From positions 6,424-70,423 of the IMG/VR virus record IMGVR_UViG_3300044631_002648: a stretch of 64,000 nt of DNA, one strand, 5' to 3'. Positions within the stretch are counted from its first letter, which is position 1. The number at the start of each line of letters is the position of its first letter. Positions 2,804 to 10,135 of this stretch are shown here, in pieces. The translations under genes and the position numbers were made by a program. The notes beneath the pieces were generated by a model that made no database searches, had not been told where the DNA came from, and saw only the letters and a program-made list of their open reading frames with translations. The DNA comes from a virus.

Positions 2804-3109
2804 ATGCGCTTCATTTGCAATTACAACGACAACGGCCCTTATTTCGGCGTCACTCAAGGACAATATCAAGCAGTTTCCTTGAAGGAGCTTCTGATGCACG
2901 TTCGTACATGCATGGAAGATAGTGACCAGGCCATTGCAGTGTTTGATGATGATTCTGAATGCCTTGGCATGTGGCTTGATGAATCAGAGCCAGTAGACGA
3001 TGGGGAGGGCGGAATGATGCTTGGCAGGCCAGTTTATTGCTTCTATAGGCCTGGCTCAATGAGCGAAGGGATGTGGAAGCGCCATTTGAAGCATTTCAAG
3101 AGGCCGTGA
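2804..3109 (+). CDS. hypothetical protein
   Basis: ORF track, acidic. Confidence 0.6.
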   Translation: MRFICNYNDNGPYFGVTQGQYQAVSLKELLMHVRTCMEDSDQAIAVFDDDSECLGMWLDESEPVDDGEGGMMLGRPVYCFYRPGSMSEGMWKRHLKHFKRP

Positions 3110-3111
3110 CA

Positions 3112-3270
3112 ATGATTCTCATTGATTTCTTTTCTGAAGCTGCTTGCAAAGGCACTGAACTTATTGAAGGATGGTATTACTATGCGGATGATGATGATTC
3201 TTTCATCGGCGGACCATTTCTAGATGAAGAAGCTGCCATAAAGGCAGCTTTTGATGGTCATGGATGGTAA
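3112..3270 (+). CDS. small acidic hypothetical protein
   Basis: MILIDFF...GWYYYADDDD..GGPFLDEEAAIKAA. Confidence 0.55.
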   Translation: MILIDFFSEAACKGTELIEGWYYYADDDDSFIGGPFLDEEAAIKAAFDGHGW

Positions 3271-3330
3271 TTAATATTGCAGCTTTTTATTAAATAGATA
3301 ATTAATTTTTATTATTTTTTTAAATAATTG

Positions 3331-3398
3331 GGACTTGGCAAAAAGCGGTAAAGGACTCGCTGAAACGCGGTATAGGGACTTGCTAAAACGCGGTATAG
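3331..3398 (+). repeat. three tandem imperfect 22-23 bp direct repeats after an AT-rich tract (about 3268-3330)
   Basis: GGACTTGGCAAAAAGCGGTAAA / GGACTCGCTGAAACGCGGTATAG / GGACTTGCTAAAACGCGGTATAG at 3331, 3353, 3376. Confidence 0.85.
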
Positions 3399-3435
3399 TA
3401 GAAGCGCTTTAGAGGGCGCCCGCGATCCGCGCCGC

Positions 3436-3520
3436 TAGTACGCCTGTACTACCGCTAGTACGTTTCTACTACCCTGATGATGAGAATCATTCTCAATAGG
3501 CGAGCCAGTACGTTTGTACT
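3436..3520. promoter_or_regulatory. three cyanobacterial-type LexA boxes (RGTAC-N4-GTWCB)
   Basis: AGTACGCCTGTACT 3437, AGTACGTTTCTACT 3457 (1 mismatch), AGTACGTTTGTACT 3507. Confidence 0.7.
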
Positions 3521-3585
3521 ACTATGTCTTTATGCGCATACACGCATACCCGCATAGGCCTAGTTGCAAGTGAGAATCAGTCGCA
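3476..3585. promoter_or_regulatory. two Fur-type boxes
   Basis: GATGATGAGAATCATTCTC (3476-3494; 16/19 to GATAATGATAATCATTATC, includes most of the perfect 7-1-7 TGAGAAT-C-ATTCTCA at 3481-3495) and TGAGAATCAGTCGCA (3571-3585). Confidence 0.65.
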
Positions 3586-3735
3586 ATAGGAGAGCCTGAG
3601 AAGCTATGCGCCTATGCGCATAGCGGCATTGTTAAGAGAGATGTGACAATCCGCGAGGCGATGCCTCCCGCTCGCTCTCCTTGTCTGTATTGTCTCTGGC
3701 AAGGCCGCGAGGCCTCCTCTCTGCTCTCTGTTCTC

Positions 3736-4101
3736 ATGCTCGCTCCTTCTCTCAGGGCTCCCTCCTTCCCTCCCCTCTCTGACGCGCTCGAGGCGCTCGC
3801 CTCTCTGCCATGGGAGCGGATCGCCTCTGCTGCTCTCGAGGCGCTCCTGTTCTCTGTGGCTCTCTGCCACGCTCTCGCCGCTCGCCTCTGGCGCGAGCGA
3901 GGCCGTCTCTCTCCCTTCCTTCGCGCTCTGGCCTCCTGGCTCGAGCGCCTCGCCTCAGCTCTGCCCGAGCCTCTCTCCTCTGCCTCCCCTCGCGCTCTGC
4001 TGATCGAGGCTCTGATCGAGGCAGGCGAGAGCTCCTCCTCTGTGGCGAAGGCCTCCCGCTCTGCTCTCCTTCGCCGCGCCTCTCGCCTCGGCCTCCTCTG
4101 A
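3736..4101 (+). CDS. island hypothetical protein (Leu/Ala/Ser-rich, 121 aa)
   Basis: ATG in the shared CTCTGTTCTCATGCTC context; preceded by TATTGT -10 (3688) and GCGA hairpin (3702-3715). Confidence 0.65.
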   Translation: MLAPSLRAPSFPPLSDALEALASLPWERIASAALEALLFSVALCHALAARLWRERGRLSPFLRALASWLERLASALPEPLSSASPRALLIEALIEAGESSSSVAKASRSALLRRASRLGLL

Positions 4102-4159
4102 GGCTATGCTCTGCAGGAGGCCGCGAGGCCTCCCCTCTCTGTTCTCTGCTCTGGTTCTC

Positions 4160-4393
4160 ATGCTCCGCTCTGCTCTCGCCGCTCTGGCTCTGTTCGCTCC
4201 TGCCTCGGCGCTCGCTTCTCCTCTGATCGTTGCTCCTCACGAGCCGATGGTTCGCCTTGAGGCTCTCCCTCACCTCGGCGCCTCTCGCTTTTCTACTGTT
4301 CAGCATTGTCTCTCTGTGGCAGAGGCCGAGCTCTCTCTGATCACCGATAGCGAGCTCGAGACGGTCGAGGCCTGCCTCCTCGAGCACACGTGA
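4160..4393 (+). CDS. island small secreted protein (signal peptide, two Cys)
   Basis: MLRSALAALALFAPASALA signal-like N-terminus; TATGCT -10 (4105) and GCGA hairpin (4116-4133) upstream. Confidence 0.65.
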   Translation: MLRSALAALALFAPASALASPLIVAPHEPMVRLEALPHLGASRFSTVQHCLSVAEAELSLITDSELETVEACLLEHT

Positions 4394-4448
4394 GGCGCTC
4401 GCCTCCTGGCTCCTTCCGCTCCTGCCTCCCTCTCTCGCTCTCCTTCCT

Positions 4449-4643
4449 ATGTCGACTCACGAGCTCCTCGCCTCTGATCTCTCATGGCCTCGGTTCTCCT
4501 TCTCCTCTCGCCGTGAGGCCGCTCTGTTCGCTCGCGAGCTCGAGGAGGAGCTCGCCTCCCCTTCGCTCTCTCCTGCCGCTCGAGCCGAGGCCGAGGAGGC
4601 GCTCGAGGAGCTCCTCTCCCTCCTGCTCTCTCCCGTCTCCTGA
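4449..4643 (+). CDS. island small acidic helical protein
   Basis: ORF track; Glu/Leu-rich, no Lys. Confidence 0.6.
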   Translation: MSTHELLASDLSWPRFSFSSRREAALFARELEEELASPSLSPAARAEAEEALEELLSLLLSPVS

Positions 4644-4652
4644 GGCTCTGCC

Positions 4653-4937
4653 ATGCTCTCCCCCTCTGAGCTCGCCTCGCTCTGCTCTGCCGTAGAGAGC
4701 GAAGGCCGCGAGCTCTCCCCCTCTGAGCTCGAGGCTATTCTCGCGCTCCCTCCTCGCTCTGGGCTCTCCCCTCTCGAGAGGCGCCTCGCCGCGATCGAGC
4801 GCCTCCTCCCTCGCCTCTCTGGCGAGGCCGAGGAGCGCCTCCTGAGAGAGAGGCGCTCCCTCCTTCGCCTTCGCCATGGCATCCCCCTGGCGATCGAGCT
4901 CCCGCTCTCCTTCTCTGCTGCTGATCTCTCCTCCTGA
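4653..4937 (+). CDS. island hypothetical protein
   Basis: ORF track; internal LSPSEL repeat; lacks K, N, Q, T, Y, W. Confidence 0.6.
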   Translation: MLSPSELASLCSAVESEGRELSPSELEAILALPPRSGLSPLERRLAAIERLLPRLSGEAEERLLRERRSLLRLRHGIPLAIELPLSFSAADLSS

Positions 4938-4948
4938 GGCTCTCTCTC

Positions 4949-5116
4949 ATGCTCCCCTCCTACCTACGGGCTCGGCTCCTCGATCGCGCCGAGGAGCTCG
5001 GCCTCGCCTCCTCTGGCCTCCCCTTCCTCCTCGAGGAGCTCGCTAGGTGGCTCCCATCCCCCACGATCGAGGCCTTCCTCTCTGATCTCGAGGAGCTCTC
5101 CTCTGCTGATCTCTGA
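4949..5116 (+). CDS. island small acidic protein (55 aa)
   Basis: Own translation MLPSYLRARLLDRAEELGLASSGLPFLLEELARWLPSPTIEAFLSDLEELSSADL. Confidence 0.6.
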   Translation: MLPSYLRARLLDRAEELGLASSGLPFLLEELARWLPSPTIEAFLSDLEELSSADL

Positions 5117-5235
5117 TCGCGGATTGTTACGGATTGTTTCAACCCAGGAGGCAGGCTCGAGCCTGCCTCCTTTTCATGCTGTAGGATCTCGTGCATGAGG
5201 CGAGAGATCGCCTCGCTCCTTCGCTCTCTGTTCTC

Positions 5236-5475
5236 ATGCTCCGCTCTGTTCGCGCTCTCGCTCCTACGCTCGCTCTGTTCGCGGGCTCTGTAGCTTTCGG
5301 CCTCTGTGCCGCCACATACGGCAATCGCATCTCTCTGGCTCCTTCCGCTCAGGCCGCCGCTCCCTTCGCCGCTCCTTTCTCTCTGTTCGCCTCTGCCACT
5401 GCGGCCTCCTTCGCTCTCGCCGCTGCGGCCTCCTGCGACGCTGCTGAGAAGCTCTCGCGCTCCGCTCGCTCCTGA
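5236..5475 (+). CDS. island membrane protein (two hydrophobic segments)
   Basis: ATG in CTCTGTTCTCATGCTC context; TAGGAT -10 (5182) and GAGA hairpin (5197-5214) upstream. Confidence 0.6.
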   Translation: MLRSVRALAPTLALFAGSVAFGLCAATYGNRISLAPSAQAAAPFAAPFSLFASATAASFALAAAASCDAAEKLSRSARS

Positions 5476-5534
5476 GCTCCTGGCCTCCCCCTCCCATGGG
5501 GGGAGGCCTTCTCTCTGTTCGCCTCGCTCCTGCC

Positions 5535-5702
5535 ATGCTCTCTCGCTCTGATCTGATCGCTCTCCTCGAGCTCCTCGAAACCTCCGCTGCTCTCGAGGCA
5601 GAGCTCAACCATTTCTTTCCCTCCCTTTTCGAGGAGGCCTCTTTCCTTCTCAGTCTTGCTGAGCGCGTCTCGCTTGAGCTGAACACTAGGTTCCCTCTCT
5701 GA
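5535..5702 (+). CDS. island small acidic protein
   Basis: MLSRSDLIALLELLETSAALEAELNHFFPSLFEE... Confidence 0.55.
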   Translation: MLSRSDLIALLELLETSAALEAELNHFFPSLFEEASFLLSLAERVSLELNTRFPL

Positions 5703-5711
5703 GCTCCTCTC

Positions 5712-5930
5712 ATGCTCTCCTCCCCTTCCATCGATCGCGCCTCTGACGCCGCGCCTCTGCTCTCCCTCCTCGCGCTCTCGCGAGGCCTTCGCCTCGCCTT
5801 CGATCGTGGCTCCTACCTGCTGATCGAGACGGCCTCCCCCTCGATCGCTCACGAGAGCCAGAGCCTGCCAGAGCTCGAGGCCTTTCTCCTCTGGCTCCCT
5901 CTCGCCTCTGCCTCTCTGCTGCTCTCCTGA
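5712..5930 (+). CDS. island hypothetical protein
   Basis: ORF track, CTCATGCTC start context. Confidence 0.55.
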   Translation: MLSSPSIDRASDAAPLLSLLALSRGLRLAFDRGSYLLIETASPSIAHESQSLPELEAFLLWLPLASASLLLS

Positions 5931-5991
5931 GCTCTCCCTCTCATGGCCTCCGCGAGGAGGCCTCCCCTTCCCCTCCTTCTCTGCTGATCTC

Positions 5992-7107
5992 ATGGCTCCC
6001 GCTCTCCTGGCTCCTCCCGCTCCCGTCTCCCTCTCTCGCGCTCCTCGAGCGCCTCAGGAGCTCCGCTCCTTCCTTTCTAGGTTCGGCCTCTCCCTAGAGA
6101 GCCTCCTCACCTCAGGCTCTGCTAATGCGAAGCTCGCGAAGGGGAGCGGCCTCGCCTTCTCCTCGATCCTGCATCTCCTCCCCTCTCGCGGCCTCGCTCG
6201 AGCCGTCTCCCCTGGCTCCCATGCCTCTCCCGTGAGAGGAGAGCTCCCTGGCCTCCGTGCTCTCGCTGATCGCGAAGGCCTCACCGCTCGCGCTCTCCTG
6301 TTCGATGCCTGCCCCTTCGCCTCCGAGGCCTGCCGCGAGCTCTGCCTCGCCTTCTCTGGTCATGGCGGCATGAGCCAGAGCGTAGGAGCCTGCAGGGCTC
6401 GGCGCTCGCTCGCGCTCCTCGCTGATCGTGAGGCCTTCGCTCGCTCTCTCCTATGGGCAATCGGCCTCTCCTACCGCAAGGCTCGGCGCCTCGGCCTCCC
6501 CTTCGCGCTCCGTCTCAATGGAACCCAGGAGCTCCCTTGGACTGAGGCCTGGCTCTCTGTTCGCCTCTCTCGTGAGGAGGCCGAGGCTCTCTCTGCTCTG
6601 TTCGATGCTCCCATCCCTCAGGGCATCCGCACCATCCCCGAGGCGCTCGCCTCTGTGCCCTTCCTTGAGCTGTACGACTACGCGAAGGCTCCTGTGTACG
6701 GACGCTCTGGCCTCCTCGCCATGAGGCAGGCAGGCATTCACACCACGGCCTCCCTCGCTGCTGATCGTGAGGGAGGAGCCGCTCGCGCTCTGGATGCAAT
6801 TGAGGCGGGCTTCTCTCTGGCAGTGCCGATCCTGGCCAGCAAGGGAGAGGAGCTCCCGCGCTCCCTCCTCCTCAGAGATGACAATGGGAGAGAAGCTCTC
6901 CTGCAGTGCATCGATGGGGACGCGAATGATCTCAGGATGCTCGATCCTTCGCCCGCTCCTGGCTTCTCTGGCCTCGCCGTTCTCCTCCGTCTCAAGCGAT
7001 CGAGAGGAGCCGATCCCTCCGCGGCCTCTCGCTTCGCTCTAGCTCCTGGCTCTGGCGCCTTCGCTCCCATGGCAGGAGGCGGCTCTTTCGCTTTCTCTCG
7101 CATTTGA
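5992..7107 (+). CDS. GP88-like protein (Cys-cluster, radical-SAM-like phage family)
   Basis: NAKLAKG, CPFAS.AC...CL..SGHG, RLNGT, YDYAK, IDGD..DLR.LDP motifs recalled from the GP88/DUF7227-type family. Confidence 0.75.
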   Translation: MAPALLAPPAPVSLSRAPRAPQELRSFLSRFGLSLESLLTSGSANAKLAKGSGLAFSSILHLLPSRGLARAVSPGSHASPVRGELPGLRALADREGLTARALLFDACPFASEACRELCLAFSGHGGMSQSVGACRARRSLALLADREAFARSLLWAIGLSYRKARRLGLPFALRLNGTQELPWTEAWLSVRLSREEAEALSALFDAPIPQGIRTIPEALASVPFLELYDYAKAPVYGRSGLLAMRQAGIHTTASLAADREGGAARALDAIEAGFSLAVPILASKGEELPRSLLLRDDNGREALLQCIDGDANDLRMLDPSPAPGFSGLAVLLRLKRSRGADPSAASRFALAPGSGAFAPMAGGGSFAFSRI

Positions 7108-7137
7108 GAAGCTCTCCTCACCCTGAGGCTCCCTCCC

Positions 7138-7371
7138 ATGGCTCTCCCCTTCTCTCTCTCTACCGTCACAGAGTACGGTCACACTGAGGAGCTAGCCTCC
7201 TTCGCCTCCCTCGAGGAGGCAGAGGAGGCGCTCTCCTCCCTCTACGATGCTCTCGAGGAGGCCTCCTCCTCTCGAGCCTTCTCTCTGCAATCCGCGATCA
7301 GCGAGCTCGAGGAGCAACTCTCAGAGGCTCGCCTCTGCGCAGAGGCAGAGGCAGAGGAGGAGGCCTCCTAG
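7138..7371 (+). CDS. highly acidic small protein (candidate DNA mimic)
   Basis: About a quarter Glu, two Arg, no Lys. Confidence 0.6.
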   Translation: MALPFSLSTVTEYGHTEELASFASLEEAEEALSSLYDALEEASSSRAFSLQSAISELEEQLSEARLCAEAEAEEEAS

Positions 7372-7372
7372 G

Positions 7373-7612
7373 ATGCCCCTCCTCCTCCCCCTCCCCTCCA
7401 TAGGCTCCCGCTCCCTCCTCCTAGTCTCTCGCTCCTCCCCTCGCCTCCCCCTCCTCGCCTCCTTCGCCTCCTGGCGATCGAGAGAGGCAGGATGGCTCGG
7501 CCTCCTCTCTCTTCGCCTCCCTGGCCTCTGGCTCCTTCGCCTTCGCTCCCTCCCATCCCGTGAGAAGCTCGATAGGCTCGGCCATGGCGTAGGGTCTAAC
7601 TTCCTTCCATAG
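7373..7612 (+). CDS. island hypothetical protein (Leu/Arg-rich)
   Basis: ATG 1 nt after the previous stop; followed by a terminator-like hairpin. Confidence 0.4.
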   Translation: MPLLLPLPSIGSRSLLLVSRSSPRLPLLASFASWRSREAGWLGLLSLRLPGLWLLRLRSLPSREKLDRLGHGVGSNFLP

Positions 7613-7641
7613 CCTCTCTCAAGGCCTCAGAAGCTCCTCTC

Positions 7642-7680
7642 AGAGCCCGCTCTCCTTCCATAGGATGGCGGGCTTCTCTG
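7642..7680 (+). terminator. putative intrinsic terminator
   Basis: AGCCCGC...GCGGGCT stem followed by pyrimidines. Confidence 0.45.
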
Positions 7681-7762
7681 TATGCGCTCCTATGCTGCCA
7701 CACGCATAGAGGGCAACTGGGGGATTATCCCCTATTCGCATAGGCGCATAACGCAAAGCATG

Positions 7763-7790
7763 AAAAAGCCGACCCCGTAGGTCGGCTTTT
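7763..7790. terminator. bidirectional intrinsic terminator between convergent island genes
   Basis: AAAAAGCCGACC-CCGTA-GGTCGGCTTTT. Confidence 0.75.
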
Positions 7791-7795
7791 AATGG

Positions 7796-7948
7796 TCAGT
7801 CTAGAGGGATCTCTAGGGCCTCGAGCTCGCTGATCATGCTGCGTACGCTGCTGATCATGCTTTCGAGGCGCTTCTCGCTCTCCTGGTGGCGCTTCTCGAG
7901 CTCTGCGAGCTGAGCGGCGAACAGGTCGGCGATCGAGGGGGAGGCCAT
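7796..7948 (-). CDS. island small coiled-coil protein (50 aa)
   Basis: Own translation MASPSIADLFAAQLAELEKRHQESEKRLESMISSVRSMISELEALEIPLD; GAGA-loop hairpin (7972-7989) upstream on the - strand. Confidence 0.65.
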   Translation of the reverse strand: MASPSIADLFAAQLAELEKRHQESEKRLESMISSVRSMISELEALEIPLD

Positions 7949-8053
7949 GGGGGATCGGTTGTAGAGGTGCGCGAGCGATCTCTCGCTCGTGAACCAGTCT
8001 GTCAGAAATCCGCGCCGATCGAGGCCGATTGCTGCATTTCTTCAAACAGTTTC

Positions 8054-8122
8054 GCTTATGTCAGTCATAAGCAAAGCTGATAGTGTAAATGTACTACAGC
8101 GCGGTAGCGGGAATGATTATCA
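8054..8122. promoter_or_regulatory. right-border cluster: palindrome, LexA-like box and Fur-like box
   Basis: GCTTATG-TCAGT-CATAAGC 8054-8072; TAGTGTAAATGTACTA 8081-8096; CGGGAATGATTATCA 8108-8122. Confidence 0.5.
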
Positions 8123-8171
8123 GTATTGGCGTGGGCATACCCCTCCGAAAAACGGCCTCATTTTTCATCAA

Positions 8172-8588
8172 CTATTTTCCCCTATGCATATCTGCATCAC
8201 TCTCTAGTAGATAATCAAGGGCTGCGCTAATCAATGCGGGGGAATCATCGAAATGACCAAGACCTAAATTGCAAGGGCTGCAAATGTAGCCTCTAAATTT
8301 GTCAGTGGTATGACAATGATCCAACACCCATCGTTCTGTGTGTTTTGTGCAGATGGGACACGGCCCTGGAGGAGGGGCTGGATTATTGCGTTTTAGACGA
8401 TTGCGAAGGCGTGCGTGATCGCGAATGCATGTTTTACAGCGTGAATCAAGATTATCTACATTGCGAGGCTGAGCTGGAAAGGCAATGAGAGGCTTTTCTT
8501 CATTGCAAAGTTGACACCTTTTTGCTGGACCTTCGAGAGGACTGAATGGCAGCGATGAGGAGAGTAGTGACAATTGCGACGATGCCAC
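8172..8588 (-). CDS. endonuclease VII-family (His-Me finger) homing endonuclease
   Basis: CxxC zinc ribbon plus CPIC...LDHCHTTDKFRGYICSPCNLGLG motif. Confidence 0.85.
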   Translation of the reverse strand: MASSQLSLLSSSLPFSPLEGPAKRCQLCNEEKPLIAFPAQPRNVDNLDSRCKTCIRDHARLRNRLKRNNPAPPPGPCPICTKHTERWVLDHCHTTDKFRGYICSPCNLGLGHFDDSPALISAALDYLLESDADMHRGK

Positions 8589-8709
8589 TGTTGCAACAAT
8601 TCTTTACAGAGCATAGTCATGAAAACTTAGTTGGCACATGGCGAGTCAAGGCCTTATGGCCGCAGACGAGCCATTATGGCGAGGCTCCATTCAGAACTTT
8701 CCATCACAA

Positions 8710-9020
8710 AGAGCGGCCTCAAAGCCGCTCTGTTTGAAAACAAGCCAGACATTCCCTTCCATTGTTATTTCCAGAACAAAGGCGCCCCTCAAAGGGCGCC
8801 TTTTAGTGCCAAAAGCCATTGTTTACGTGTGTTTTTGAGCCATCCGCGCAGTTGCACGCATTTTCCCCTTGCATTTACCAGGCGTACTGGAGCGACGCCG
8901 CTTTTGGGGCGGCGTCTCAGAGCTGGAAGGACATTTGCCAGTCCTAGAAGGCTTGCGAGGGGCTTGGCGTCGAGAGCTTTTTGTTGCCCTGAAGCGCTCA
9001 GTGGCCGCTTTGGGGCGGCC
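8710..9020. repeat. cluster of four GC hairpins with conserved CYCAAA loops, two per orientation
   Basis: 8710-8731 and 8778-8803 (loop CTCAAA); 8894-8916 and 9003-9020 (loop TTTGGG = CCCAAA reversed). Confidence 0.8.
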
Positions 9021-9200
9021 CCTCGCTTAGTGCTGAATCACTGGTGAGACGTTTTCACTGGTGAGGCGTCGCTCGTCAGTGTCGCTTGTCAGAAGACGTA
9101 CGTTGCACTATGCGTATAGCATAACGTGGGCTGATGGTGATCTGTTTTCCCCATTGCTCCCAATCGTGCTACTGTAGGCCAGTTCGGCCTTTCGTGTATC

Positions 9201-9869
9201 ATGGTGAACACCACTCAATGGTGCTTAATTTCCCACTGGGAATTTAGTGACTGGCTCTGGCGTATTGATTTCACGCTCCATCCAGACGCATTGTTTGATC
9301 AATTGCTGTTTTCGTACCACGAACGGCTCATGGTGATCAAAGCTTTTGAGACCATGGGAAATCGCCAACAGCAAATTGAAGAGCGTTTTGCTGAATGCCA
9401 CAAAGGCGGTCCTTGGTACGCCCCTCGACCAGAGCTAAGGCGGTTCGTAGAAGATGAGGCAATGTGTGAAACGCTTACGGCTAAGCATTTGTTTGGCATG
9501 AGAGAAGGCCGCCTTAATTGGCGGCCTGCAAGGCTTGATATGCGATCAAAAATGGAAAGAGCTCAAGGCGAAGGGGAGCTGCCAAAATTTGTGCGGAATG
9601 CGGAGCGTTTTGTGATGTGGGCCGTCGATGACGTGACGGGAGATGGTGAGGCGTGTTTACCGAGGGGAATCATTCAGCATCCAGCGAATTCCCTTTATCA
9701 GCCAAAAACTATTTACAACACCATTCGCATTCTTGTCGAGCAAGAGAAAGTGGCTAAAGCTTCGTCTGGGAGGCTTTTGTTGACCGACAAGGGGCAAGAG
9801 GAAATTGATGGATTAAAAAAAGTGGAAGAATTAAAAAGAAAAGGCAGTGTGAGGACATTGCGTCTGTAA
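9201..9869 (+). CDS. hypothetical protein with C-terminal winged-helix-like segment (start uncertain)
   Basis: TIYNTIRILVEQEKV...GRLLLTDKG resembles a wHTH recognition helix and wing. Confidence 0.55.
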   Translation: MVNTTQWCLISHWEFSDWLWRIDFTLHPDALFDQLLFSYHERLMVIKAFETMGNRQQQIEERFAECHKGGPWYAPRPELRRFVEDEAMCETLTAKHLFGMREGRLNWRPARLDMRSKMERAQGEGELPKFVRNAERFVMWAVDDVTGDGEACLPRGIIQHPANSLYQPKTIYNTIRILVEQEKVAKASSGRLLLTDKGQEEIDGLKKVEELKRKGSVRTLRL

Positions 9870-9940
9870 AAGCTGAAGTTTGTATAAACAACCACTTTCC
9901 CTTCATTGTTCTCTCTCTAGCGTGAAGAGACACAGCGGAA

Positions 9941-10135
9941 ATGACTATGTGGGACGACCTTCCAGAGCCCTTCATGGTCGGCGCCATCAAACTTTGGCCT
10001 GCCCATAGTCGTCCTGGCTATACGTGGTTCATTGCTCACGAAGGTAAGCCTTATTACTTTCGGAGTAAGAGCGAGGCCATGCTTTTTGCAAAGGACAGGC
10101 AGTCCATTGAAGATCCTGAAATGCTGTGCGATTAG
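9941..10135 (+). CDS. hypothetical protein
   Basis: ORF track. Confidence 0.55.
   Translation: MTMWDDLPEPFMVGAIKLWPAHSRPGYTWFIAHEGKPYYFRSKSEAMLFAKDRQSIEDPEMLCD

What the first reader, a model, noticed from the sequence alone, without database searches (positions are those of the whole stretch)
3650..8030. A 4.4-kb gene island written in a reduced DNA vocabulary: candidate stealth, first-injected genome end
Seen: between sharp borders the DNA is dominated by CTC/GAG, CGC, GCC and GATC words. Adenines on both strands sit mostly in GAG or GAT (all 11 A in 4501-4620 are in GAG, and top-strand T is mostly CTC). AC/GT, AA and TA are scarce, while the flanks are ordinary. It still encodes about 12 tightly packed genes with promoters and terminators, on both strands, so strand skew alone does not explain it. 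The proteins are pushed toward L/S/A/E/R/P and lose K/N/T/V/Q/Y (the 4653-4937 product has no K, N, Q, T, Y or W). Palindromes are not avoided in general: CTCGAG, GAGCTC, CGATCG and GGCC abound. Known: GATC, CGATCG and GGCC are methylated by orphan MTases in Synechocystis, and T5 injects a restriction-site-poor first-step segment. Inference: selection acts on the DNA words themselves. Possible causes are (a) collapsing k-mer diversity to avoid A-centred type I/III R-M or BREX sites, (b) removing GTN PAMs of cyanobacterial type I-D CRISPR, or (c) avoiding contexts that the phage hypermodifies so host RNAP can read the early genes.
Basis: partly seen in the sequence, partly recalled or inferred. 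Interest (0 to 1): 0.95.

Follow-up and report, generated by a model that had tools for sequence, protein, structure and literature searches.

The report
Swappable cyanophage gene cassette in reduced DNA vocabulary
A 4-kb block of real genes in a freshwater cyanobacterial virus is written almost entirely in a few DNA words such as CTC and GAG, and this style travels with the gene block rather than with the virus, but it does not look like a way of hiding a first-injected genome end from restriction enzymes.

Summary
Window 3650-7680, plus a small block at 7796-8000, has about 10% A and 40% C on the sense strand. A.T pairs sit mostly in CTC/GAG, and 4-mer entropy is 6.2-6.9 bits against 7.4-7.7 elsewhere.

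It is not an artefact. All 27 related IMG/VR contigs carry the same island at the same locus. It holds about 11 real genes, including a GP88-family protein with a weak radical-SAM-like fold.

The rule acts on nucleotides. It holds at codon junctions and in untranslated spacers, and it exceeds synonymous-codon shuffles by about 22 SD.

The stealth, first-injected-end reading is not supported:
- The assembly closes into a circle.
- The S-CBS4 record ends at this locus cut a gene, which suggests an assembly gap.
- Islands carry 50-75 times more CTCGAG, GAGCTC and CGATCG per kb than their flanks, which purge these palindromes.

The new result is that a contig 93-95% identical in both flanks carries the orthologous cassette, with the same genes in the same order, written in a different GC-rich dialect. 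The vocabulary therefore belongs to an exchangeable cassette lineage.

The cause is unknown. My best guess is selection on the transcribed nucleic acid, with slippage contributing. The scan has noted this style before on other DNA (e1-5872909, e1-6035745, e1-6097610).

The parts
3437..3520 (.). Three palindromic boxes of the form AGTAC-N4-GTACT (LexA-box-like) just upstream of the island
   Evidence: 4 matches in the 64-kb window at up to 1 mismatch, 3 of them here. None of 100 shuffles reached 4; in 28 loci (27 relatives plus the window), 52 of 55 such boxes lie within about 400 nt of an island border. They lie upstream in 16 of 28 loci and downstream in 14 of 28. The wider consensus used is recalled, and binding is untested.
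3630..3650 (+). Conserved promoter-like motif at the left border; the vocabulary starts within about 10 nt after it
   Evidence: a run of invariant columns across 7 of 7 aligned cassette borders. Searches show the composition switch. Its role as a promoter is inferred. The sigma-70 scan did not list it.
3650..7680 (+). Core of the reduced-vocabulary island (sense strand is +)
3736..4101 (+). Gene, 121 aa, family present in 22 loci; function unknown
   Evidence: differences to relatives by codon position are 0.181, 0.085 and 0.256. 22 of 22 copies are intact. Indel lengths are 6, 9 and 15, with one of 8; the orthologue in L051 is 55% identical. No Pfam or PHROG hit.
4160..4393 (+). Gene, 77 aa, N-terminus looks like a signal peptide (read by eye)
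   Evidence: the orthologue in L051 is 62% identical. Start chosen at the ATG that follows a repeated hairpin and CT-rich module.
4449..4643 (+). Gene, 64 aa, acidic (pI 4.4)
   Evidence: differences by codon position 0.106, 0.058, 0.180; 10 of 10 intact; all indels 3 nt. for pI.
4653..4937 (+). Gene, 94 aa, with no K, N, Q, T, Y or W
   Evidence: 0.187, 0.124, 0.291; 9 of 11 intact; indels of 3 or 6 nt..
4949..5116 (+). Gene, 55 aa, acidic (pI 4.2)
   Evidence: 0.150, 0.089, 0.251; 15 of 21 intact; family present in 19 loci.
5117..5200 (+). Internal stretch of ordinary composition with a GC hairpin followed by TTTT (about 5147-5174); probable end of the first transcription unit
   Evidence: Read directly. 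Not listed by the terminator scan, which needs 5 T.
5236..5475 (+). Gene, 79 aa, hydrophobic and Ala-rich, signal- or membrane-like N-terminus (read by eye)
   Evidence: the frame of ORF 5191 gives 0.199, 0.151, 0.348; family in 18 loci. L051 orthologue 54% identical.
5535..5702 (+). ORF, 55 aa; coding status not verified
   Evidence: too few homologues (1).
5712..5930 (+). Gene, 72 aa
   Evidence: 0.121, 0.069, 0.190; 6 of 6 intact.
5992..7107 (+). GP88-family protein, 371 aa
   Evidence: Pfam PF17338, E 5.4e-11, 43.2 bits against a cut-off of 24.4. phrog_1617, E 1.4e-25; 0.183, 0.127, 0.395; 24 of 25 intact. AF2 model pLDDT 88.4. Best structural neighbours are radical-SAM enzymes at Z 5.0-6.5. 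C107, C114 and C118 are invariant.
7138..7371 (+). ORF, 77 aa, very acidic (pI 4.1; 19 D+E against 2 K+R)
   Evidence: phrog_3550, E 2.9e-4. Only 2 homologous loci, so support is weak.
7373..7612 (+). Gene, 79 aa, basic and hydrophobic
   Evidence: L051 orthologue 62% identical; the region is conserved in several relatives.
7755..7782 (.). Hairpin flanked by A5 and T4, a bidirectional terminator-like site in a stretch of ordinary composition (7680-7795)
   Evidence: Read directly. Composition. Not listed.
7796..8000 (-). Second, small low-vocabulary block that is G-rich on the + strand; contains ORF 7796-7948 (50 aa) on the - strand
   Evidence: codon-position signal is weak (0.265, 0.284, 0.353; 6 of 6 intact).

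Best explanation
The island is an exchangeable accessory gene cassette of S-CBS4-like cyanosiphoviruses. It is probably early or operator-controlled. It sits at a fixed hot spot between a small conserved ORF (3073-3270) and the endonuclease VII / ribonucleotide reductase genes.

It holds about 11 real genes in one or two rightward transcription units, plus a short leftward one. The units start after a conserved promoter-like motif, end at hairpins, and are bracketed by LexA-box-like palindromes.

The transcribed DNA of this cassette lineage is held in a reduced word set. A.T pairs occur almost only as CTC/GAG or in GATC. AC/GT, TA and TT/AA are avoided.

The force responsible acts on nucleotides. 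It does not act through codon or tRNA choice, RNA folding or restriction-site avoidance. The sense-strand excess of C and T would follow if proteins under this rule can obtain hydrophobic residues almost only from CTC (Leu).

The vocabulary is inherited with the cassette and is not imposed by the phage backbone. I think the most likely force is long-term purifying selection on the nucleic acid of the cassette, either its transcript or its transcribed duplex. Slippage-type micro-duplication adds to the low complexity. The molecular target of that selection is unknown.

Shown: real genes, the nucleotide-level rule, conservation, cassette exchange, and no restriction stealth. Inferred: selection rather than drive, promoter and terminator roles, and early expression.
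For: Real and conserved. 27 of 27 GP88-bearing relatives have an island of A 0.09-0.15 and C 0.34-0.42 at the syntenic locus. The 7-kb stretch is held at 0.95 or more of its words in 4 lake-water runs, 3 of which may be the source.

Genes are real. Differences follow codon position 2 < 1 < 3, indels are multiples of 3, and ORFs are intact.

The rule is at nucleotide level. At codon junctions, CT, TC, AG and GA are enriched (z 6.9-9.9) and TT, CC, AC, GT and TA are depleted (z -4.5 to -7.1) against synonymous shuffles. Entropy is 22 SD below the shuffles. The odds are symmetric under reverse complement.

The bias is bounded by regulatory DNA of ordinary composition.

It is not RNA structure. 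Mean folding z is -0.86 in the island and -1.65 in a control region.

It persists. Cassettes whose GP88 is only 59-69% identical (dS about 1.3) keep AC/GT at 0.21-0.29 and AG/CT at 1.68-2.0.

It is a cassette property. L051 is 92.8-95% identical to the window in both flanks. It carries five orthologous genes in the same order, 50-62% identical in protein. Its Leu codons are CTG (41 of 81) rather than CTC (56 of 81), and its Glu codons are GAA (7 of 9) rather than GAG (9 of 9).

The proteins are dragged along. Replacements from L051 to the window run 124 toward L/A/S/E/R/P and 48 away from them.

Exchange is supported. L012 and L013 are 95.0% identical in the island and 73.8% in the flanks.

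Slippage contributes. There are 27 TRF rows, against 8.3 +/- 2.7 in dinucleotide shuffles and 15.9 +/- 4.9 in order-3 Markov sequences.
Against: No target of selection was found.

The orthologous cassette in another dialect on a near-identical backbone shows that this vocabulary is not required for the cassette to exist there.

The lower synonymous divergence of island genes (dS 0.14-0.78, against 0.76-3.2 in the left-flank ORF and 1.4-3.5 or saturated in RNR) is confounded by recent horizontal spread of the cassette. It is therefore weak evidence for synonymous constraint.

Polarised recent changes are balanced: 54 away from the vocabulary, 42 toward it and 48 neutral. That fits any equilibrium, whether selective or mutational.

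The excess of micro-repeats fits a mutational drive.

Early expression, promoter use and LexA binding are untested.

The - strand block is short, and its sense strand is T-poor rather than A-poor.
Confidence: 0.45

Rival explanations
1. Neutral molecular drive. The cassette sits in a recombination hot spot. Replication slippage, micro-duplication and biased gene conversion keep regenerating the lineage's own simple words. Protein-level selection only filters the result. The vocabulary has no function.
For: There is an excess of short tandem repeats: 27 rows covering 636 nt, against 8.3 rows in dinucleotide shuffles and 15.9 in order-3 Markov sequences. Two cassette lineages have different dialects on near-identical backbones. 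The dinucleotide odds are symmetric under reverse complement. Amino-acid composition is dragged along, 124 replacements against 48. Cassette exchange occurs.
Against: In the GP88 gene, TRF found repeats only at 5988-6037. Yet the whole gene is biased: L/A/S/E/R/P make up 0.66 of residues and A3 is 0.08. Point substitutions must therefore carry most of the bias there. T-ending GCT, TCT and CCT codons used before C do not fit GC-biased conversion. I know of no mutational process that yields CTC/GAG words (recall). The bias has been held across dS of about 1.3.
Confidence: 0.25
2. The island is the first-injected genome end, and its collapsed vocabulary hides it from type I/III R-M, BREX or type I-D CRISPR until anti-defence genes are expressed.
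For: Word diversity is low: 61% of 6-mers are absent against 24% in controls, and 88% of type-I-like motifs against 64.5%. GT/AC is 3-fold lower, and lower than synonymous shuffles. Several products are small and acidic. The S-CBS4 record ends fall at this locus. CCGG and the GC-only palindromes GGGCCC, CGGCCG and GCGCGC are absent from the island.
Against: The record closes on itself through a 178-nt overlap. The S-CBS4 ends cut a gene, and two other contigs break at the same border. Islands carry 50-75 times more CTCGAG, GAGCTC and CGATCG per kb than the flanks, which purge them. 123 GT sites remain. Three relatives have purged CTCGAG from the island without leaving the vocabulary (0 CTCGAG in L017, L020 and L029). 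In L017 and L020, Leu-Glu is written CTAGAG or CTTGAG. Site avoidance is therefore a separate and weaker layer. An orthologous cassette without this vocabulary sits in a near-identical backbone.
Confidence: 0.06
3. Self-compatibility with a cassette-encoded nucleic-acid enzyme. GP88, or another product, modifies or cuts DNA or RNA in particular sequence contexts. The genes expressed with it are written only in contexts it does not touch, or only in contexts it protects. This includes the reader's option (c).
For: The dialect changes together with the GP88 subfamily (about 50% identity) on the same backbone. GP88 is the one gene shared by all islands found. Its model resembles radical-SAM enzymes, some of which act on nucleic acids or nucleotides: Z 5.0-6.5, with 18 of the first 19 rows of this superfamily by their titles or my recall of the enzymes. 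It has three invariant Cys. The bias is limited to transcribed DNA.
Against: There is no evidence that GP88 acts on nucleic acid. Z below 8 can reflect a common fold only (note). The canonical CX3CX2C motif is absent. Foldseek found nothing at E up to 0.001. The rest of the phage genome is not written this way and would be exposed to the same enzyme. Genome-wide palindrome avoidance argues against broad protective modification (inference).
Confidence: 0.1
4. Transcript hardening. The words remove A/U-rich and UA, AC and UU sites cut by RNase E-type and toxin endoribonucleases. They also remove internal promoter and terminator-like signals. The aim would be a long-lived, evenly transcribed early mRNA.
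For: TT, TA, AA and AC are depleted in the sense strand, including at codon junctions. The bias covers UTRs and spacers and stops at regulatory DNA.
Against: GT is depleted as strongly as AC, and the odds are strand-symmetric. An RNA-only target does not predict this. The other-dialect cassette does not avoid WW steps beyond its GC content: AA/TT 0.84-1.31 and AT 0.94-1.55. No expression or decay data are available. The cleavage preferences are recalled, not tested.
Confidence: 0.1

Closest known systems
Phage morons and accessory gene cassettes (own promoter and terminator, composition unlike the neighbours, variable among relatives)
   Same: Own promoter-like motif and hairpin ends. GC 0.65 against about 0.49 in the genome. 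Variable gene content among relatives. Replaced as a block on a near-identical backbone.
   Different: The composition is not merely foreign GC content. It is a word-level rule, with AG/CT odds of 2.0 and AC/GT odds of 0.27, kept across saturated divergence. It is shared by about 11 unrelated genes and their spacers.
T5 first-step-transfer (pre-early) region and the T7 class I early region with gene 0.3 (features recalled)
   Same: A compact block of small, partly acidic proteins of unknown function that may be expressed early.
   Different: No evidence for a leading end or terminal repeat. Rich in palindromes that the rest of the genome avoids. No Ocr or ArdA family hit at E up to 1.
CpG and UpA suppression in vertebrate RNA viruses, linked to ZAP and RNase L (recalled)
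   Same: A dinucleotide rule that is independent of the reading frame, visible at codon junctions, and that distorts codon and amino-acid use.
   Different: A DNA phage. Different dinucleotides (AC/GT, TA, TT/AA). Confined to one cassette. Strand-symmetric. No sensor known.
Cryptically simple, slippage-prone coding sequence
   Same: Excess of short low-copy tandem repeats, with indels in multiples of 3.
   Different: Repeats cover only 636 of 4451 nt. The well-folded enzyme gene has the same vocabulary with almost no repeats.
Earlier notes of this scan: e1-5872909 (shares 5 of 180 short words with the 3736-4101 gene), e1-6035745 and e1-6097610 (CT/GA-style operons in other cyanophages)
   Same: A pyrimidine-rich coding strand, GT/AC depletion, and a style kept by relatives. 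The follow-up agents likewise did not find that restriction avoidance explains it.
   Different: Those notes name Ocr-like or ArdA-like first genes, and none was found here. I did not see their sequences.

Membership tests
Pfam GP88 (PF17338), for ORF 5992-7107 | Score above the curated gathering threshold | tested here: met
   43.2 bits against a 24.4 cut-off, E 5.4e-11. The L051 orthologue scores 41 bits. phrog_1617, E 1.4e-25.
Radical-SAM superfamily, for GP88 | CX3CX2C cluster motif (recalled definition) | tested here: not met
   The invariant Cys are C107, C114 and C118, that is CX6CX3C. Variant spacings exist in the superfamily (recall).
Radical-SAM superfamily, for GP88 | Partial TIM-barrel fold similar to solved members | tested here: inconclusive
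   VIA-align over the wide library: rows 1-19 are almost all radical-SAM enzymes, Z 5.0-6.5, 158-202 residues aligned, rmsd 3.9-6.1. The tool notes that Z below 8 may be a common arrangement. Foldseek found no match at E up to 0.001. A profile search of PDB sequences gave 0 hits at E up to 1.
Leading-end early region (T5 FST or T7 class I type) | Lies at the physical end that enters first | tested here: inconclusive
   The record ends overlap by 178 nt at 99.4% identity. The S-CBS4 ends at this locus cut a gene.
Leading-end early region (T5 FST or T7 class I type) | Poor in restriction sites relevant to the host | tested here: not met
   CTCGAG, GAGCTC and CGATCG are at 3.84, 4.89 and 2.05 per kb in the islands. 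In the flanks, which avoid them, they are at 0.05, 0.09 and 0.04 per kb. CCGG and the GC-only palindromes are, however, absent from this island.
Leading-end early region (T5 FST or T7 class I type) | Encodes known anti-restriction or host-shutoff proteins | tested here: not met
   No Pfam family other than GP88 above threshold in 10 + 8 + 8 proteins. PHROG hits are to families of unknown function only.
Moron / exchangeable accessory cassette | Own regulatory ends, atypical composition, replaced or variable among close relatives | tested here: met
   (ends). (composition). (variation and exchange).
LexA (SOS-box) regulated operon | Palindromic boxes matching the cyanobacterial LexA consensus in the promoter region (consensus recalled) | tested here: met
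   Three boxes at 3437, 3457 and 3507. 52 of 55 boxes in 28 loci lie next to island borders.
LexA (SOS-box) regulated operon | Bound and repressed by LexA | not testable with these tools
   Needs a gel-shift assay or expression data. A phage repressor could bind the same palindromes.
GC-biased gene conversion tract | Weak-to-strong bias at all silent sites | tested here: not met
   Third positions are T 0.235 and G 0.232. GCT (82) exceeds GCC (74), which exceeds GCG (28). TCT (68) exceeds TCC (58).

The most novel reading that the evidence does not exclude
Each cassette lineage is written in a private nucleotide dialect matched to the sequence specificity of a nucleic-acid-modifying enzyme that it encodes itself, the radical-SAM-like GP88. 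The cassette uses only contexts the enzyme leaves alone, or only contexts it protects. That would keep this operon readable or safe while the rest of the DNA or RNA in the cell is altered. Different GP88 subfamilies would then dictate different dialects on the same phage backbone.
Probability: 0.1. Interest if true: 0.9.

Novelty: new variant of a known kind. Interest (0 to 1): 0.66.

Why it matters
If a nucleic-acid-level force can hold about 11 unrelated genes, their spacers and their UTRs in a handful of words for as long as it takes silent sites in neighbouring genes to saturate, then phage genomes contain a layer of information that gene annotation does not see. That layer visibly reshapes the proteins: six amino acids make up 73% of residues.

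The natural pair of orthologous cassettes in two dialects on near-identical backbones is a ready-made experiment for finding the target. The target could be an RNase, a DNA-binding or modifying factor, or nothing at all if the cause is pure drive.

There are also practical consequences:
- The island breaks assemblies, and the S-CBS4 reference record probably lacks about 7 kb at this locus.
- The skewed composition may hide these proteins from homology searches. That is an inference, and the less skewed L051 orthologues also gave no family hit.
- The GP88 family gains a structural lead.

Tried and rejected
RNA secondary structure as the target. 200-nt windows of the sense strand give a mean z of -0.86 against dinucleotide shuffles. 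A control region gives -1.65. There is no signal.

Codon or tRNA selection. Rejected as the sole cause, because the same dinucleotide rule holds at codon junctions and in untranslated spacers.

Antisense coding. The long - strand ORFs of 141-214 aa are expected, because stops are rare on a T-poor strand. I estimated roughly one stop per 90 codons per frame. That estimate is my own arithmetic from rough trinucleotide counts read, not a tool result. The codon-position signal follows the + frames.

UV-lesion avoidance on the template strand. Considered and dropped, because GAG (CTC on the template strand) is enriched. This is my own arithmetic from the frequencies and recalled photoproduct yields.

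A phage RNase E as the reason for A/U avoidance. The 243-aa homologue of the S-CBS4 gene annotated 'Rnase E' (genome 3443-4174) reads like a helix-turn-helix followed by a charged low-complexity tail. I did not run it against Pfam.

A wider second clade. GP88 homologues about 50% identical (L037-L057) first looked like weaker islands. They proved to be a different GC-rich dialect, with GA/TC 0.64-0.78, CA/TG 1.24-1.51 and GGCC at 24.9 per kb.

Functions of the small proteins. Pfam and PHROGs were run on both dialects. The protein atlas was tried on the 121-aa protein (no usable hit) and on GP88 (only unnamed or DUF7227 viral clusters at 0.89-0.90).

Genome contigs. One hit only, an 8.9-kb contig binned as an Aquiluna MAG that carries the same island. 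It was not pursued and may be a mis-binned phage contig.

Literature. Searches for 'S-CBS4' returned 19 papers, and I saw listings and abstract starts only. 'PF17338' returned 0 papers. A search on cyanophage, palindrome avoidance and restriction gave listings only. A six-term search on compositional islands in phage early genes returned 1 irrelevant paper. I read no paper. The original S-CBS4 description is not in the library listing, and what I say of it is recalled or taken from the GenBank record. On these searches alone, I found no published description of this vocabulary. No supplementary files were consulted.

Sequencing runs. All 24 listed runs are kept as contigs, none as raw reads.

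Full report
WHERE THE WINDOW LIES

The window is bases 6424-70423 of a 70,423-bp IMG/VR virus record that CheckV rates as complete. It is collinear with Synechococcus phage S-CBS4 (NC_016766, 69,420 bp, host CB0101) at 64-87% nucleotide identity.

Window 3007-9920 has no counterpart in the S-CBS4 record. That record's last base aligns to about window 3006, and its first base to window 9921.

THE OBSERVATION

It is confirmed. In 1-kb windows the island has A 0.09-0.15 and C 0.36-0.41. Its 4-mer entropy is 6.23-6.90 bits, against 7.41-7.73 bits elsewhere.

Half of all A in 3650-7620 lie in GAG or GAT, against 13% outside. 49% of T lie in CTC, against 5% outside.

Strand-symmetrised dinucleotide odds in the core are AC/GT 0.27, TA 0.31, AA/TT 0.59, AG/CT 2.03 and GA/TC 1.89.

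The borders are sharp. The core runs from about 3650 to about 7680. A stretch of ordinary composition follows, carrying a hairpin flanked by A5 and T4 (7755-7782). A small second block at 7796-8000 is G-rich on the + strand. Inside the core, 5117-5200 is ordinary DNA with a GC hairpin followed by TTTT (read directly). The simple scan lists neither hairpin.

NOT AN ARTEFACT, AND NOT PRIVATE TO THIS GENOME

A search of IMG/VR with the largest island protein found 31 loci. Of these, 27 (L005-L031; 59-92% identical in that protein) carry an island at the syntenic place. Each is 1.4-4.2 kb long, with A 0.09-0.15, C 0.34-0.42, G 0.21-0.28 and T 0.22-0.29, and has ordinary flanks. The remaining four, 28-30% identical, have no such island.

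The 7-kb stretch around the island is held at 0.95-0.98 of sampled words in four lake-water runs, three of which may be the source. Three more runs hold 0.38-0.59. All of these are contigs.

I therefore have no depth or read-end data.

THE GENES ARE REAL

ORF 5992-7107 is a GP88-family protein (PF17338, 43.2 bits against a 24.4 cut-off; phrog_1617).

For 3736-4101, 4449-4643, 4653-4937, 4949-5116, the frame of 5191-5475, 5712-5930 and 5992-7107, differences to relatives follow codon position 2 < 1 < 3. Indels are almost all multiples of 3, and most copies are intact.

4160-4393, 5236-5475 and 7373-7612 have orthologues in a second cassette type.

5535-5702, 7138-7371 and the - strand ORF 7796-7948 are weakly supported.

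Over the 11 ORFs counted (1179 codons), codon use is extreme. Leu is CTC in 166 of 226 cases and Glu is GAG in 104 of 109. L, A, S, E, R and P make up 73% of residues. N, K, Q, Y, T and V fall to 0.13-0.31 of their frequency in the rest of the genome (which counts 10 genes, 1083 codons).

THE RULE ACTS ON NUCLEOTIDES

Neither amino-acid composition nor codon usage alone gives the low entropy. Island proteins recoded with the genome's codon usage give 7.63 bits. The genome's proteins recoded with island codon usage give 7.66 bits. Even both together, as synonymous codons shuffled among sites, give 6.961 +/- 0.016 bits, against 6.605 observed.

At codon junctions the same dinucleotides are favoured and avoided as inside codons. 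CT, TC, AG and GA are enriched (z 6.9-9.9). TT, CC, AC, GT and TA are depleted (z -4.5 to -7.1).

Untranslated spacers such as 4394-4448 and 5931-5991, and the 5' leader 3655-3735, obey the rule.

The odds are nearly the same for each dinucleotide and its reverse complement. In double-stranded terms the rule is that an A.T pair is flanked so that the T strand reads CTC.

The sense-strand skew (477 CTC against 152 GAG) may be a by-product of coding. Under this rule Leu (CTC) is almost the only hydrophobic residue available, so the pyrimidine-rich strand has to be the sense strand. This is an inference.

RNA folding shows no special signal.

RESTRICTION SITES

The whole genome has no CCGG. Outside the island, 91 are expected by Markov model and 230 by base composition. 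Inside it, 0 are observed against 7.4 and 43 expected.

Outside the island, in this genome plus S-CBS4, 15 of the 18 most under-represented 6-mers are palindromes. This is the usual mark of type II avoidance. The list includes GAGCTC, CGATCG and CTCGAG.

In this genome outside the island, CGATCG is 0 (expected 7.7-14.9) and CTCGAG is 2 (expected 8.4-14.9). GAGCTC is only mildly low, at 12 against 14.9-18.

In 214 kb of flanks from the 27 relatives, CGATCG, CTCGAG and GAGCTC occur at 0.04, 0.05 and 0.09 per kb. In 81 kb of their islands they occur at 2.05, 3.84 and 4.89 per kb.

Within this island they are at the level its vocabulary predicts. Leu-Glu is written CTCGAG in 17 of 22 cases and Glu-Leu is written GAGCTC in 22 of 25.

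The island does avoid GC-only palindromes that the genome avoids. GGGCCC, CGGCCG and GCGCGC are each 0, and CCGCGG occurs at one site.

Three relatives have no CTCGAG in the island at all (L017, L020 and L029). In L017 and L020, Leu-Glu is written CTAGAG or CTTGAG.

Site avoidance therefore operates inside the island as a separate, lineage-specific layer. It does not explain the vocabulary. For the palindromes that the backbones purge most visibly, the island is the most exposed DNA in the genome. Given the cassette mobility described below, the mismatch between island and backbone is most simply a trace of cassette exchange between backbones with different restriction histories. This is an inference.

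THE GENOME-END IDEA

The record's first 178 nt match its last 178 nt at 99.4% identity. The assembly therefore closes on itself and defines no end.

The S-CBS4 record stops inside the homologue of ORF 2804-3109. It restarts just before the homologue of ORF 9941-10135.

Contigs L059 (100% identical to the window) and L060 also stop at about 3714 and 3782, within about 130 nt of the island's left edge.

The simplest reading is that assemblies break here and that the S-CBS4 reference lacks this region. This is an inference, and a real deletion is not excluded.

It also has a 3-fold drop in GT/AC, although 123 sites remain.

THE CASSETTE IS EXCHANGEABLE, AND THE VOCABULARY GOES WITH IT

Contig L051 matches the window at 92.8% identity over 2979-3586, 95.0% over 8638-9134 and 93.8% over 9880-10088. 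Between these stretches it carries 3.6 kb that barely aligns.

That DNA encodes, in the same order, orthologues of 3736-4101 (55% identical), 4160-4393 (62%), 5236-5475 (54%), GP88 (50%) and 7373-7612 (62%). It also holds one extra gene of ordinary composition.

It is GC-rich (0.65-0.69 in four islands of this dialect, 0.61 in L046; L051 itself was not in that table) but written differently. At residues identical in both cassettes, Leu is CTG in 41 of 81 cases against CTC in 56 of 81 here. Glu is GAA in 7 of 9 cases against GAG in 9 of 9 here.

In that dialect GA/TC is depleted (0.64-0.78), CA/TG is enriched (1.24-1.51) and GGCC reaches 24.9 per kb.

Of 326 amino-acid differences, 124 go from other residues in L051 to L/A/S/E/R/P here, and 48 go the other way.

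Other contigs place the second dialect at the same locus. One example is L055.

Within the first dialect, L012 and L013 are 95.0% identical in the island and 73.8% in the flanks.

The vocabulary has also lasted. Cassettes with GP88 only 59-69% identical (dS about 1.3) keep AC/GT at 0.21-0.29 and AG/CT at 1.68-2.0.

REGULATION AND CONTENT

A run of invariant columns (window 3630-3650) marks the left border in 7 of 7 aligned cassettes, and the vocabulary begins just after it.

Three AGTAC-N4-GTACT palindromes lie at 3437-3520. In the 28 loci, 52 of 55 such boxes lie next to an island border, on either side. The wider consensus used there is recalled, and binding is untested.

Seven of the 12 island ORFs are small and acidic (50-77 aa, pI 4.1-4.9).

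GP88 gives a confident model (pLDDT 88.4). Its nearest solved structures are radical-SAM enzymes at Z 5.0-6.5. It has three invariant Cys spaced CX6CX3C. This is a lead, not an assignment, because Foldseek and sequence searches of the PDB found nothing.

WHAT HOLDS THE VOCABULARY

Slippage contributes. The island has 27 short tandem repeats covering 636 nt, against 8.3 +/- 2.7 in dinucleotide shuffles and 15.9 +/- 4.9 in order-3 Markov sequences. The remaining 54 kb of the window has 17.

The GP88 gene, however, has almost no repeats and the same bias. Point substitutions must therefore be steered as well.

Island genes show lower dS than flank genes in the same genome pairs. One example is L011: 0.14 and 0.45 against 1.12, at similar dN. 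Cassette transfer confounds this comparison.

Recent polarised changes are balanced, with 54 away from the vocabulary, 42 toward it and 48 neutral. That fits any equilibrium.

I therefore favour selection on the cassette's nucleic acid, at about 0.45. A neutral drive stands at about 0.25. A match to a cassette-encoded enzyme and transcript hardening stand at about 0.1 each. The stealth-end idea stands at about 0.06.

EARLIER NOTES OF THE SCAN

e1-5872909 shares 5 of 180 short words with the 3736-4101 gene and describes the same style. e1-6035745 and e1-6097610 describe it in other cyanophages. The follow-up agents likewise did not find that restriction avoidance explains it. I did not see their sequences.

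Noticed in passing
window 2804-3109 and 9921-10135; S-CBS4 record ends (L001, L004): The S-CBS4 reference record ends inside the homologue of ORF 2804-3109 and restarts just upstream of the homologue of ORF 9941-10135. It has nothing for window 3007-9920. The reference probably has an assembly gap of about 7 kb here. Contigs L059 and L060 also stop at the island's left edge.
   Followed up: partly
whole record (G000:C1), both ends: The first 178 nt of the record match the last 178 nt at 99.4% identity, although the record is classed as linear. The assembly closes into a circle of about 70.2 kb.
   Followed up: partly
whole genome: CCGG is completely absent (0 observed; 91 expected by Markov model, 230 by composition). 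CAGCTG, ACGCGT, GACGTC and TTCGAA are also absent outside the island, both here and in S-CBS4. S-CBS4 itself has 129 CCGG, so CCGG avoidance is specific to certain lineages.
   Followed up: partly
window 3437-3520; island borders in L005-L031: AGTAC-N4-GTACT palindromes (LexA-box-like) bracket the cassette on both sides in most relatives and are almost absent elsewhere in the loci (52 of 55 lie next to a border).
   Followed up: partly
window 3268-3400: About 60 nt of nearly pure A/T followed by three repeats of about 22 nt, just left of the operator region. This could be an origin or another signal. It is also the place where the read-laying filter tripped.
   Followed up: no
window 3700-3745, 4113-4165, 5198-5245: A repeated module precedes three genes whose products start ML(A/R): a GC hairpin, often with a GCGA or GAGA loop, then a CT-rich run, then ATGCTC. 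This points to internal duplication of gene starts.
   Followed up: no
window 5992-7107 and alignment A1: The GP88 family, which has no known function, gives a confident model whose nearest solved folds are radical-SAM enzymes (Z 5.0-6.5). It has three invariant Cys spaced CX6CX3C and an invariant GHGG-like stretch.
   Followed up: partly
L051 1477-1734: The other-dialect cassette carries one extra 85-aa gene of ordinary composition (rich in K, N, Q, Y and I) inserted between biased genes. The bias there is gene-by-gene and not a blanket property of the locus.
   Followed up: no
genome 3443-4174 (outside the window): The homologue of the S-CBS4 gene annotated 'Rnase E' reads like a helix-turn-helix protein with a long K/E-rich tail. 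The annotation may rest on low-complexity similarity only.
   Followed up: no
L036 (contig binned as an Aquiluna MAG): An 8.9-kb contig in an actinobacterial MAG carries the same island (GP88 66% identical; AC/GT 0.29). It is probably a phage contig binned by mistake.
   Followed up: no
window 8172-8588 (-): An endonuclease VII family gene (PF02945, E 4e-14) lies just right of the cassette, in DNA that is also missing from the S-CBS4 record.
   Followed up: no
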